IMG/VR virus record: IMGVR_UViG_3300035492_000103
Span: 10,019-74,018 of that record
Reading direction: 5' to 3' (one strand)
Source: a virus
Length of the DNA: 64,000 bases
In this document: positions 39,496-39,903 of the stretch, piece after piece
Position numbering within the stretch: position 1 is the first letter of the stretch
Layout of the letters: every line of letters starts with the position of its first letter
Program-made: the position numbers and the translations under genes
Notes under the pieces: model-generated
What the model was told of the DNA's origin: nothing
Seen by the model: only the letters and a program-made list of their open reading frames with translations
The model's database searches: none

Positions 39496-39639
39496 AAAAT
39501 AAATTTGGACTGGTCTCTGTTTTTACGTATGCTACCATTACACCAGTTCCGAAAATTCGGAACTCCGGAATTGAATCGGAATCACGTCCTTGGTATGGAA
39601 TAGTTTTGTTGCTGCAAGAGACCATTCCAAATTTATTTT
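39496..39639 (-). ncRNA. Y-RNA-like member 2, YrlA-type permuted tRNA domain
   Basis: 14-bp outer stem, A.G, UGGUCUCU stem, UGCAGCAAC; degenerate T arm, closed acceptor GUUCCGAA/UUCGGAAC, D arm UGGUGUAAUGGUAGCAU. Confidence 0.8.
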
Positions 39640-39644
39640 ATTGT

Positions 39645-39759
39645 CAGAACCACTTTATTGGCCAGGCGCTCTCCCAACTGAGCTACATTGGCTTTCGCCT
39701 CTGGGTGGACTCGAACCACCGACATCCAGGTTGTTTTTAAATGCTGCATGGGTTCTTTG
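39645..39759 (-). ncRNA. Y-RNA-like member 3, YrlA-type
   Basis: AGAACC/GGUUCU, UGCAGCAU; GGUGG-UUCGAGU-CCACC, GGC-GAAA-GCC, GCUC-AGUUGGGA-GAGC. Confidence 0.8.
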
Positions 39760-39774
39760 AAACTTTTTAATTCA

Positions 39775-39903
39775 CATCTAACAGGATTCTGTTTACGTGC
39801 TCTACCAACTGAGCTACAGAGACTTTCATCTCCGAGAGGACTCGAACCTCTGACCACGACATTAGCATTGTAGTTTTTGTTGCTGTAAGAATCCTTTTAG
39901 ATG
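39775..39903 (-). ncRNA. Y-RNA-like member 4, YrlA-type
   Basis: AGGAUUCU/AGAAUCCU, A.G, UACAGCAAC; AGAGG-UUCGAGU-CCUCU, CGGAGA-UGAAAG-UCUCUG, GCUC-AGUUGGUA-GAGC. Confidence 0.82.

What the first reader, a model, noticed from the sequence alone, without database searches (positions are those of the whole stretch)
39496..39903. Three tandem circularly permuted tRNA mimics (T arm, capped acceptor, D arm)
Seen: in each of three consecutive RNAs the order is T arm, then an acceptor-like helix closed by a loop (UU, GAAA, UGAAAG), then a D arm. A short anticodon-stem remnant (ACGU/ACGU, CCUGG/CCUGG, CGU/ACG) joins this to the terminal module. There is no anticodon loop and no CCA end. Known: this permuted topology matches the YrlA tRNA-like effector domain. 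Inference: uncharged elbow mimics that could titrate elbow-binding proteins or recruit tRNA-modifying enzymes. Three divergent copies in one locus is unusual.
Basis: partly seen in the sequence, partly recalled or inferred. Interest (0 to 1): 0.85.

Follow-up and report, generated by a model that had tools for sequence, protein, structure and literature searches.

The report
Three tRNA-shaped Y-like phage RNAs
A phage from a tar-pit metagenome carries three small RNA genes in a row, each shaped like a tRNA with its ends moved to the anticodon side, lying just upstream of a gene for a Ro60-shaped protein; they belong to a large, apparently uncatalogued phage version of the Ro60/Y-RNA particle.

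Summary
On the minus strand at 39496-39903 lie three units. Each has a terminal helix, a conserved YW-CAGCA(A/U) single strand, a short anticodon-stem remnant, a T arm, a 7-bp acceptor capped by a tetraloop, and a D arm. None has an anticodon loop or a CCA end.

Rfam YrlA matches two units, but below threshold (39 and 30 bits; cut-off 69).

The gene 316 nt downstream of unit 3, on the same strand (466 aa, DUF2828/DUF7788), is predicted to fold like Ro60. It is 43% identical to Bas63 gp130, a reported counter-defence protein.

A covariance model found the same "handle" next to this gene family in 52 of 91 loci. All 86 handle hits were on the gene's strand. All four helices covary, and a natural relative shows two compensatory T-stem swaps.

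Best reading: these are Y-RNA-like partners of a phage Ro60-like protein. The handle is the inferred binding site and the tRNA-shaped part the effector. Binding and function are not shown.

The RNAs fail two defining YrlA tests, so I class them as a new variant of a known kind.

This scan has flagged the same family on other DNA (225 notes, at least 163 genomes). I found no paper or Rfam family describing it.

The parts
39775..39903 (-). Unit 1: outer stem (7 bp), handle helix (8 bp), UACAGCAAC motif, CGU/ACG remnant, T arm, acceptor capped by GAAA, and D arm of type A (UAGCUCAGUUGGUAGAGC).
   Evidence: Parts mapped. Rfam YrlA 39.1 bits. Minimum-free-energy fold reproduces the T, acceptor and D hairpins, z = -3.8. 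A relative carries the compensatory pair 39849 T>A with 39837 A>T in the T stem.
39646..39756 (-). Unit 2: handle helix AGAACC/GGUUCU, CAUGCAGCAUUUAAAAAC motif, CCUGG/CCUGG stem, T arm, acceptor capped by GAAA (two internal mismatches), and D arm of type A.
   Evidence: YrlA 29.6 bits. Model R1, not trained on this unit, gives 56.5 bits. A relative carries 39720 C>T with 39704 G>A (G-C to A-U in the T stem), and 39664 A>T turns the U.U mismatch into A-U.
39496..39639 (-). Unit 3: 14-bp outer stem, 8-bp handle helix, UGCAGCAAC motif, ACGU/ACGU stem, divergent T arm (loop UUCAAUU, one A.C mismatch), 7-bp acceptor capped by AUUU, and D arm of type B (GGUGUAAUGGUAGCAU).
   Evidence: Model R1, not trained on this unit, gives 33.8 bits, E = 5e-5. 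A parser that uses no model finds 7 of 7 acceptor pairs. Fold z = -6.2, driven by the terminal stems.
37780..39180 (-). Ro60-fold protein gene (466 aa; DUF2828 + DUF7788, vWA with a MIDAS DVSGS motif). It is the inferred protein partner.
   Evidence: Pfam hits. AlphaFold2 model with pLDDT 83. The top 13 PDB matches are all Ro60 proteins, over the full length. 43% identical to Bas63 gp130.
40301..40371 (-). Minimal handle RNA: helix GGAUAGU(U), UACAGCAAAC motif, short insert. Same array, no tRNA-like part.
   Evidence: R2 32.5 bits. Fold z = -5.1.
40383..40466 (-). Second minimal handle RNA with a long outer stem.
   Evidence: R2 24.3 bits. Fold z = -6.6. Rfam Dicty_Class_I_RNA 22.3 bits, below threshold.
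34959..35110 (-). Sixth handle RNA, inside the tRNA cluster. The motif variant is UGCGGCAAC and the insert is not tRNA-like.
   Evidence: Sequence read. Weak R2 hit, E = 0.16.
40784..40878 (-). Two strong sigma-70-like promoters (11 of 12 matches each) that could drive the unit ORF88, two minimal RNAs, TM2 gene, three tRNA-like RNAs, ORF63.
   Evidence: Consensus scan. This is a pattern match only.
39225..39254 (-). Terminator-like hairpin with a U run, between ORF63 and the Ro-like gene.

Best explanation
The three elements are genes for small non-coding RNAs of a Y-RNA-like family that partners with a phage-encoded Ro60-fold protein (DUF2828/DUF7788).

Each RNA has two modules:
- A 'handle'. 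It consists of AAAG, an 8-bp helix formed by the RNA's two ends, the single-stranded YW-CAGCA(A/U) plus an A/U-rich tract, and a 3' CUGU-like tail. I infer that this is the site bound by the Ro-like ring, by analogy with the Ro-binding stem of Y RNAs.
- A circularly permuted tRNA body. It has an anticodon-stem remnant, a variable loop, a T arm, a capped acceptor and a D arm. It should fold into the tRNA elbow and act as the effector. It would dock a tRNA-recognising factor (RNase P, modification enzymes, an exoribonuclease or another host protein) onto the particle, or gate the ring.

The RNAs are probably cut out of a polycistronic early transcript.

Shown here: the RNA structure, its conservation and covariation, its linkage to the gene, and the Ro60 fold of the protein. 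Inferred: the binding, the processing, and the role in RNA surveillance, repair or counter-defence.
For: 1. Architecture and significance.
2. Covariation over 15 units from 11 phage loci and this window: 93.8% of cells paired against 60% in shuffles; covariation score 0.94 against 0.26; partners slid by 1-3 columns give 0.09-0.18; all four helices carry double changes. A parser that uses no model finds 7 of 7 acceptor pairs, each with a different sequence, in 12 units.
3. Independent population evidence: a roughly 95%-identical relative has A-U to U-A in the unit 1 T stem, G-C to A-U in the unit 2 T stem, and U.U to A-U in the unit 2 anticodon-stem remnant.
4. Linkage: 86 of 86 handle hits lie on the gene's strand, in 52 of 91 loci, at a median of 238 nt from the gene. 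In six whole phage records the best hits lie close to the Ro-like gene, 0.1-1 kb away in five and directly upstream in P100.
5. Protein: the top 13 PDB matches are Ro60 of a Thermus phage, Deinococcus, Xenopus and human, over the full length, with TM 0.41-0.63 and E down to 5e-9. The MIDAS motif is conserved.
6. Precedent: bacterial and phage Ro60 bind neighbouring Y-like RNAs (PMC4201824, PMC12135203). The Bas63 homologue gp130 counters the Ppl defence, and its authors guessed that Y RNAs hide among the neighbouring tRNA genes (PMC11482910). I find such an RNA there, at L003:4959-5092.
Against: There is no expression, end-mapping or binding data for this phage; no RNA run holds it.

The handle lacks the GNCGAA motif that Ro60 orthologues are thought to read, so binding by the Ro-like protein rests on gene linkage only.

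39 of 91 loci gave no handle hit. The model was tuned to full-length units and many contigs are truncated, but some phages may truly lack the RNA.

A terminator-like hairpin separates the array from the Ro-like gene, so the two need not be co-transcribed.

The alignment used for covariation was fitted to the model, which favours the structure.

Unit 2's acceptor has two mismatches, and unit 1's 3-bp remnant is broken in a relative (39856 A>C).
Confidence: 0.72

Rival explanations
1. Free tRNA decoys. The RNAs would act on their own, not as part of a Ro-like particle, soaking up host proteins that recognise the tRNA elbow or acceptor (defence nucleases, modifying toxins, processing enzymes).
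For: The tRNA-like part keeps the elements needed for an elbow: U8, A14, G18-G19, a UUCGA T loop, and the T-stem pair nearest the loop as G-C in 14 of 15 units. Three copies would raise the dose. The units sit in a tRNA-rich region typical of phage answers to tRNA-directed defence.
Against: This does not explain the conserved handle, which is shared with RNAs that have no tRNA part or quite different inserts. It also does not explain the strict same-strand linkage to the Ro-like gene across unrelated phage lineages.
Confidence: 0.12
2. Processing punctuation. The tRNA-like bodies and long terminal stems would serve mainly as RNase P, RNase Z or RNase III cleavage signals that cut the polycistronic transcript between small ORFs. 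The excised pieces would have no function of their own.
For: The units lie between ORFs, downstream of two strong promoter-like sites. The acceptors are 7 bp long, the length reported to allow RNase P cleavage of M. smegmatis YrlA (PMC4201824). The outer stems of 14+8 bp look like RNase III substrates.
Against: In many loci the handle RNAs lie directly beside the Ro-like gene or in its 5' leader, with no ORFs to separate. The conserved single-stranded CAGCAA motif has no role in such cleavage. Canonical-topology relatives end in an encoded ACCA, like stable RNAs.
Confidence: 0.08
3. Permuted or split tRNA genes that are rejoined or nicked into working, chargeable tRNAs.
For: The Rfam tRNA model scores 40.3 bits on a chimera made of unit 1's 5' half and unit 2's 3' half. 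Their acceptor strands pair 7 of 7. Relatives in S13 and L091 carry ACCA right after the acceptor 3' strand.
Against: No unit has an anticodon loop. The three window units have no CCA. Folding the whole array keeps every unit closed on itself. The intervening 70 nt is two handle halves, not an intron. ARAGORN finds nothing.
Confidence: 0.03
4. Decayed tRNA genes or chance tandem-tRNA junctions with no function.
For: The locus is next to 13 tRNA genes. Junctions of tandem tRNAs do score with YrlA-type models (PMC4201824; false hits at window 36967-37049 and in L009).
Against: The acceptors are closed by tetraloops. The helices covary across phages of Enterococcus, Escherichia, Mycobacterium and Bacillus and across metagenomic loci. 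Close relatives show compensatory changes.
Confidence: 0.02

Closest known systems
YrlA (Rfam RF02553), the tRNA-like Y RNA bound by Rsr/Ro60 in Salmonella, M. smegmatis and some mycobacteriophages (Chen et al. 2014, PMC4201824)
   Same: A terminal helix encloses a permuted tRNA-like domain (T arm, acceptor-like hairpin, D arm). It is encoded within a few kb of, and on the same strand as, a Ro60-fold protein gene. It is often accompanied by shorter sister RNAs (YrlB-like). A 7-bp acceptor occurs, as in the RNase P-cleaved M. smegmatis YrlA.
   Different: The handle has YW-CAGCA(A/U) plus an A/U tract instead of GNCGAA(N)G. Rfam scores are 39.1 and 29.6 bits, with no hit for unit 3 (cut-off 69). 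Relatives in Bas63, Bacillus FADO and LilDestine are invisible to the Rfam model at E < 0.05. The partner protein is DUF2828/DUF7788, not a Pfam TROVE protein.
Thermus phage phiLo Ro60 with Yrl1/Yrl2 (PMC12135203; PDB 9KOP, 9L5Y)
   Same: A phage-encoded Ro60-fold protein with Y-like RNAs encoded just upstream. It is the best structural match to the window's protein.
   Different: Yrl1 and Yrl2 were picked by a CGAA motif and a stem-bulge-stem shape, and that paper reports no tRNA-like domain for them. Sequence identity to the window's protein is about 15%.
Dictyostelium Class I RNAs (Rfam RF01414; Kjellin et al. 2021, PMC7919456)
   Same: The handle has the same layout: an AAG start, a short covarying stem joining the 5' and 3' ends, a motif next to the 5' strand (Rfam consensus CCUUACAGCAA), a variable interior, and a CUGU end. 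Minimal handle RNAs hit this Rfam model at 22-31 bits at exactly the same coordinates as my model's hits.
   Different: All hits are below the 41.5-bit cut-off. Class I RNAs are 42-65 nt eukaryotic RNAs with their own promoter element, are reported as unique to dictyostelids, and are known to bind an RRM protein. The three units studied here carry a roughly 75-nt tRNA-like insert. Common descent is not shown.
Circularly permuted tRNA genes of Cyanidioschyzon merolae and viral or cellular tRNA-like structures (comparison from general knowledge)
   Same: The tRNA halves are in reversed order, and a tRNA-shaped fold is used for something other than decoding.
   Different: Permuted tRNA genes regain an anticodon loop and a CCA end after processing. 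These units have neither, and they carry a protein-binding handle where the anticodon arm would be.

Membership tests
YrlA (RF02553) | Terminal helix enclosing a T arm, an acceptor-like hairpin and a D arm in permuted order | tested here: met
   Covariation in all helices.
YrlA (RF02553) | Encoded within about 4 kb of a Ro60 orthologue, on the same strand | tested here: met
   The gene at 37780-39180(-) lies 316-595 nt downstream of the units. It has a Ro60 fold by Foldseek, but it is a DUF2828/DUF7788 protein, not a Pfam TROVE protein.
YrlA (RF02553) | GNCGAA(N0-1)G motif near the 5' end (the proposed Ro60 contact) | tested here: not met
   The sequences read have UACAGCAAC, CAUGCAGCAUU and UGCAGCAAC at that place.
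YrlA (RF02553) | Score at or above Rfam's gathering threshold (69 bits) | tested here: not met
   39.1 and 29.6 bits; unit 3 not reported.
YrlA (RF02553) | Bound by the Ro60 orthologue; carries tRNA-type modifications | not testable with these tools
   No RNA or binding data are available.
tRNA (RF00005) | Acceptor stem formed by free 5' and 3' ends, an anticodon arm, and a CCA end or a site for adding one | tested here: not met
   ARAGORN calls none. The Rfam hit at 39696-39823 is a chimera of two units with a 70-nt insert. The acceptors are closed by tetraloops.
Dictyostelium Class I RNA (RF01414) | AAG start, 6-bp terminal stem, adjacent motif of about 11 nt, CUGU end, 42-65 nt, score of at least 41.5 bits | tested here: inconclusive
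   The layout and motif of the handle match by eye. Minimal relatives score 22-31 bits, below the cut-off. The three units are 111-144 nt with a tRNA-like insert. Features taken from PMC7919456.
Ro60 / TROVE proteins (the neighbouring gene) | HEAT-repeat ring plus a vWA domain with a MIDAS motif | tested here: met
   AlphaFold2 model pLDDT 83, pTM 0.82. Full-length Foldseek matches to 9KOP, 2NVO and 1YVR, among others. DVSGS is invariant. By sequence alone only the vWA part is weakly seen.
Permuted tRNA genes (C. merolae type) | The junction restores a full anticodon arm, and processing yields a CCA-ended tRNA | tested here: not met
   The handle helix and CAGCA motif occupy the anticodon position, and there is no CCA.

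The most novel reading that the evidence does not exclude
The handle-plus-effector RNAs and the DUF2828 Ro-like protein form a second, widespread Ro/Y-type particle of phages.

In this reading the tRNA-shaped module exists in both permuted and canonical topologies. Canonical and ACCA-bearing forms would be matured by RNase P and 3' trimming into nicked, CCA-ended tRNA bodies. The paralogous tRNA modules (two ancient D-arm types, both present here) would dock different host tRNA-binding factors onto the ring to defeat RNA-directed or other defences.

The handle would be the same RNA module as the so far orphan Dictyostelium Class I RNAs.
Probability: 0.12. Interest if true: 0.85.

Novelty: new variant of a known kind. 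Interest (0 to 1): 0.66.

Why it matters
Ro60/Y-RNA particles are known from animals, about 5% of bacteria and a few phages. What the tRNA-like domain of bacterial Y RNAs does is still open.

This locus adds the following:
- It belongs to a much larger phage family. The protein has homologues in 708 phage records, including Felix O1-like, T4-like, Listeria P100-like, Enterococcus, Staphylococcus, Campylobacter, Bacillus and mycobacteriophages.
- Its RNA partners are missed by Rfam. Annotators either miss them or mis-call them as odd tRNAs or tiny ORFs.
- It names concrete candidate RNA partners for Bas63 gp130, a protein already tied to counter-defence.
- One handle carries interchangeable effector inserts.
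- Side-by-side canonical and permuted topologies are consistent with permutation by tandem duplication.

These points give direct handles for experiments in cultured phages.

Tried and rejected
- A MAFFT alignment of six units misaligned the handle and acceptor. I therefore seeded the model from two similar units with a hand-written structure.
- A crude regex for 'helix + CAGC' was far too loose and I dropped it.
- Megablast against phage genomes found nothing. The closest IMG/VR relative (65% protein identity, L010) is cut at the gene. Upstream it shows only a minimal handle in the 5' leader.
- A sequence-only search of the PDB saw only the vWA domain (E = 0.5 to Ro60). Only the fold comparison was decisive.
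- Sequencing runs: no RNA run holds the locus, so ends and expression could not be tested.
- The cross-unit pairing (unit 1 GUCUCUG with unit 2 CAGAGGC, 7 of 7) could give a canonical tRNA-like fold. I rejected it as the main fold because the array's minimum-free-energy structure keeps each unit closed and the handle halves in between cannot pair.
- The ESM Atlas returned only viral DUF2828 clusters and said nothing about eukaryotic relatives. I did not pursue a Dictyostelium protein partner.
- The Annual Review on bacterial Ro60 (PMC10870794) is not held. The supplementary phage list of Chen et al. 2014 is not held either. I therefore cannot exclude that a few of these phage RNAs were in their set of 22 phages.

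Full report
**1. What is there**

Read on the minus strand, 39903-39496 holds three consecutive units. Each begins with A-rich flank nucleotides. These are followed by:
- a helix whose partner lies at the unit's 3' end (8, 6 and 8 bp; units 1 and 3 add outer stems of 7 and 14 bp);
- a single-stranded motif (UACAGCAACAAAAAC, CAUGCAGCAUUUAAAAAC, UGCAGCAACAAAAC);
- a spacer;
- the 3' strand of a short stem (CGU, CCUGG, ACGU);
- a 3-5 nt variable loop;
- a 5-bp T arm (loops UUCGAGU, UUCGAGU, UUCAAUU);
- directly abutting the T arm, a 7-position acceptor hairpin capped by GAAA, GAAA or AUUU;
- two nucleotides (UA, UA, UG);
- a 4-bp D arm with a GG-containing loop;
- the 5' strand of the short stem;
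- the closing strand.

There is no anticodon loop and no CCA. ARAGORN finds 13 ordinary tRNAs in the window but none here.

Rfam's tRNA model does pass its threshold at 39696-39823. That hit is a chimera: the acceptor 5' strand and D arm come from unit 1, the T arm and acceptor 3' strand from unit 2, and a 70-nt 'insert' lies between them.

**2. More than chance**

- Rfam YrlA matches unit 1 (39.1 bits, E = 9e-7) and unit 2 (29.6 bits, E = 5e-4). Both are below the 69-bit cut-off, and unit 3 is not reported.
- Model R1 was built from unit 1 and one Enterococcus-phage unit only. It found unit 2 at 56.5 bits and unit 3 at 33.8 bits in a 675-kb search.
- Thermodynamic folding alone is weak evidence. 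It recovers the whole tRNA-like part only for unit 1. The proposed folds lie 6-10 kcal/mol above the minimum free energy, as is common for tRNA-like RNAs.

**3. Surroundings**

Everything nearby is on the minus strand. The order is:
- two strong promoter-like sites (40878-40784);
- an 88-aa ORF;
- two short hairpin RNAs with the same helix-plus-CAGCAA layout (40466-40383 and 40371-40301);
- a TM2-domain ORF;
- the three units;
- a 63-aa ORF;
- a terminator-like hairpin (39254-39225);
- a 466-aa gene (39180-37780);
- a block of 12 tRNA genes.

The 466-aa protein carries DUF2828 and DUF7788, plus a faint Ro60-vWA signal. Its AlphaFold2 model (pLDDT 83, pTM 0.82) matches, as its 13 best PDB hits and over its full length, Ro60 from Thermus phage phiLo, Deinococcus, Xenopus and human (TM 0.41-0.63). 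The vWA MIDAS motif DVSGS is invariant in the family.

Homologues occur in 708 phage records of very different lineages, often annotated 'Ro-like RNA-binding protein'. One is Bas63 gp130 (43% identical). A preprint reports that gp130 has a Ro60-like fold and counters the Ppl defence, and it speculates that Y RNAs hide among the adjacent tRNA genes (PMC11482910).

**4. The RNA family**

I fetched 10 loci from cultured phages and IMG/VR and 80 more from IMG/VR around homologues of the protein. The refined model R2 gave 104 hits, all on the strand of the Ro-like gene.

- 86 hits carry the handle motif. They lie in 52 of 91 loci, at a median of 238 nt from the gene. The other hits are tandem-tRNA junctions, the known false positive of such models (PMC4201824).
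- In whole-genome searches of six phages, the best hits lie next to the Ro-like gene every time. The phages are this one, Bas63, LilDestine, Bacillus FADO, Cronobacter S13 and Listeria P100.
- On 15 full-length units, 93.8% of cells pair, against 60% in shuffles. The covariation score is 0.94, against 0.26 in shuffles and 0.09-0.18 for slid partners. The handle helix, T stem, acceptor and D stem all carry double changes, and the T-stem pair nearest the loop is G-C in 14 of 15 units, as in tRNA. That alignment was fitted to the model.
- As a check I parsed the raw sequences without any model. 12 units show a 5-bp T stem, a 7 of 7 acceptor hairpin of entirely different sequence in each, a UA or UG dinucleotide, and a 4-bp D stem. 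Most also have a 3-5 bp covarying anticodon-stem remnant, for example CUAGU/ACUGG, GGACU/AGUCC and UUGGU/ACCGA.

**5. Independent support from natural variants**

Contigs of a roughly 95%-identical relative in another metagenome show the following:
- 39849 T>A together with 39837 A>T. This turns A-U into U-A at the third pair of unit 1's T stem.
- 39720 C>T with 39704 G>A. This turns G-C into A-U at the outer pair of unit 2's T stem.
- 39664 A>T. This turns the U.U mismatch in unit 2's CCUGG/CCUGG stem into A-U.
- One change (39856 A>C) weakens unit 1's 3-bp remnant, the least secure helix.

**6. Features that bear on mechanism and origin**

(a) The handle encloses interchangeable contents. 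These are nothing (53-75 nt RNAs), a T arm alone, the full tRNA-like body, or at least two other conserved inserts. This is the logic of Y RNAs: a constant protein-binding stem with a variable effector loop.

(b) Many loci place a minimal handle 10-60 nt upstream of the Ro-like start codon (L010). This fits the idea that the protein binds the handle, here perhaps to regulate its own synthesis. That is an inference.

(c) Cronobacter phage S13 and locus L054 carry canonical-topology relatives. They have an open 7-bp acceptor ending in ACCA or GCCA, a D arm, then the handle helix closed by a loop and followed by the CAGCA motif, then a T arm. S13 has two of these in tandem plus one permuted unit whose acceptor cap loop begins with ACCA, and L091 shows the same. 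Tandem duplication of a canonical form yields a permuted unit across the junction. The S13 locus looks like that intermediate. The direction of the change is not established.

(d) Two D-arm types recur across phages: UAGCUCAGUUGGUAGAGC and GGUGUAAUGGUAGCAY. The window and L054 each hold both, so the paralogues are old and may dock different partners.

(e) All three window acceptors are 7 positions long. That is the length reported to make M. smegmatis YrlA an RNase P substrate (PMC4201824). Cleavage here is possible but untested.

**7. How it most likely works**

Shown: conserved, covarying RNA structure; tight linkage to a Ro60-fold gene; modular design.

Inferred: the Ro-like ring binds the handle, and the tRNA-shaped module docks a tRNA-recognising factor or gates the ring. 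The particle would act in RNA surveillance, RNA repair or counter-defence during infection. Two observations fit this: an RtcB-type ligase gene lies 1.3 kb from the gene in Listeria P100, and Bas63 gp130 counters Ppl.

The rivals are scored separately: free decoy, processing punctuation, split tRNA, and decayed tRNA. The first two are not excluded. The last two conflict with the data.

**8. Comparison with what is known**

The units work like YrlA but fail two of its defining features, the GNCGAA motif and the Rfam threshold. The protein is not a Pfam TROVE member. I therefore do not file the units as YrlA.

The handle's layout matches Dictyostelium Class I RNAs: AAG, a short covarying terminal stem, a UUACAGCAA-type motif, a variable interior, and CUGU (PMC7919456). 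Minimal relatives hit that Rfam model at 22-31 bits at the same coordinates as my model's hits. All are below threshold, so this is a resemblance and not a membership.

I found no paper or Rfam family describing these RNAs. The library is incomplete. The phage list of Chen et al. 2014 was not available.

**9. Earlier notes of this scan**

Follow-up agents described the same family on other genomes. My results agree with them. I re-derived the linkage, the fold and the covariation here. I checked the Class I resemblance only at the level of Rfam scores and the published description.

**10. Verdict**

This is a real, structured, conserved RNA array. It is a new variant of the Ro60/Y-RNA theme, not a new kind of system. 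Three full tRNA-like units in one locus is at the top of the range seen. Function remains to be shown experimentally.

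Noticed in passing
window 39696-39823 (-): Rfam's tRNA model passes its threshold (40.3 bits) on a chimera of unit 1's 5' half and unit 2's 3' half, whose acceptor strands pair 7 of 7. Annotation pipelines may call a false intron-containing tRNA here. The pairing may be a relic of duplication.
   Followed up: partly
L002:4395-4515, L002:4525-4637 (Cronobacter phage S13); L054:6233-6348: Canonical-topology relatives: an open acceptor ending in ACCA or GCCA, with the handle helix capped by a loop and the CAGCA motif sitting where the anticodon arm would be. 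In S13 they are annotated as 'tRNA-Ser' and 'tRNA-OTHER'.
   Followed up: partly
L083:708-883, L089:2518-2694, L090:2498-2621, L071:3847-4007, L092:2499-2663; also L050:145-284, L061:1261-1377, L082:2730-2832: The same handle encloses at least two other conserved inserts that are not tRNA-like. One ends ...GGAGUUUCGAU..CUCCUCGAUAAAAACAAAAAGUAGAC. The other contains GAACCUUUCUGGAGGGGAAAGCAAAAACUCGCC.
   Followed up: no
L010:2940-2985; also L068-L070, L076, L061, L079, L090-L093 and L009, just upstream of the gene: A minimal handle sits 10-60 nt upstream of the Ro-like start codon in many loci. This suggests a leader element through which the protein could regulate its own synthesis.
   Followed up: no
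window 34959-35110 (-): A sixth handle RNA lies inside the tRNA cluster. It has the motif variant UGCGGCAAC and a roughly 120-nt insert of two hairpins rather than a tRNA-like body.
   Followed up: partly
L003:4959-5092 and L003:4417-4482 (Escherichia phage Bas63 / JohannRWettstein): One full tRNA-like handle RNA and one minimal handle RNA lie in the tRNA cluster about 0.5-1 kb downstream of gp130. The first overlaps two tiny annotated minus-strand CDS (bas63_0137 and bas63_0138), which are probably mis-calls.
   Followed up: partly
L004:968-1519 (Listeria phage P100); L001:222-572 and L075:5649-6122: A ROOL-like RNA (86 bits; cut-off 99.1; E = 7e-16) lies about 1 kb upstream of the Ro-like gene in P100. 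tmRNA genes lie near the gene in an Enterococcus phage and in one IMG/VR locus. In P100 an RtcB-type ligase gene is 1.3 kb downstream.
   Followed up: no
L001:3360-3410, 3555-3595, 3735-3778 (Enterococcus phage EfsSzw-1): Each of the three handle RNAs is preceded by a conserved extra hairpin (AUAGUUCC...GGAACAUAAAG) that is absent from the window. It may be a lineage-specific processing or promoter element.
   Followed up: no
window 39723/39872 and 39724/39797 (joints in runs X4 and X5): Low-depth contigs of relatives join the tRNA part of one unit to the handle of another, which hints at variation in unit number. The joints have short flanks and could come from other phages.
   Followed up: no
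window 41082-42314 (-): A 410-aa protein has a TET-associated glycosyltransferase (TAGT) domain, which suggests DNA base hypermodification in this phage.
   Followed up: no
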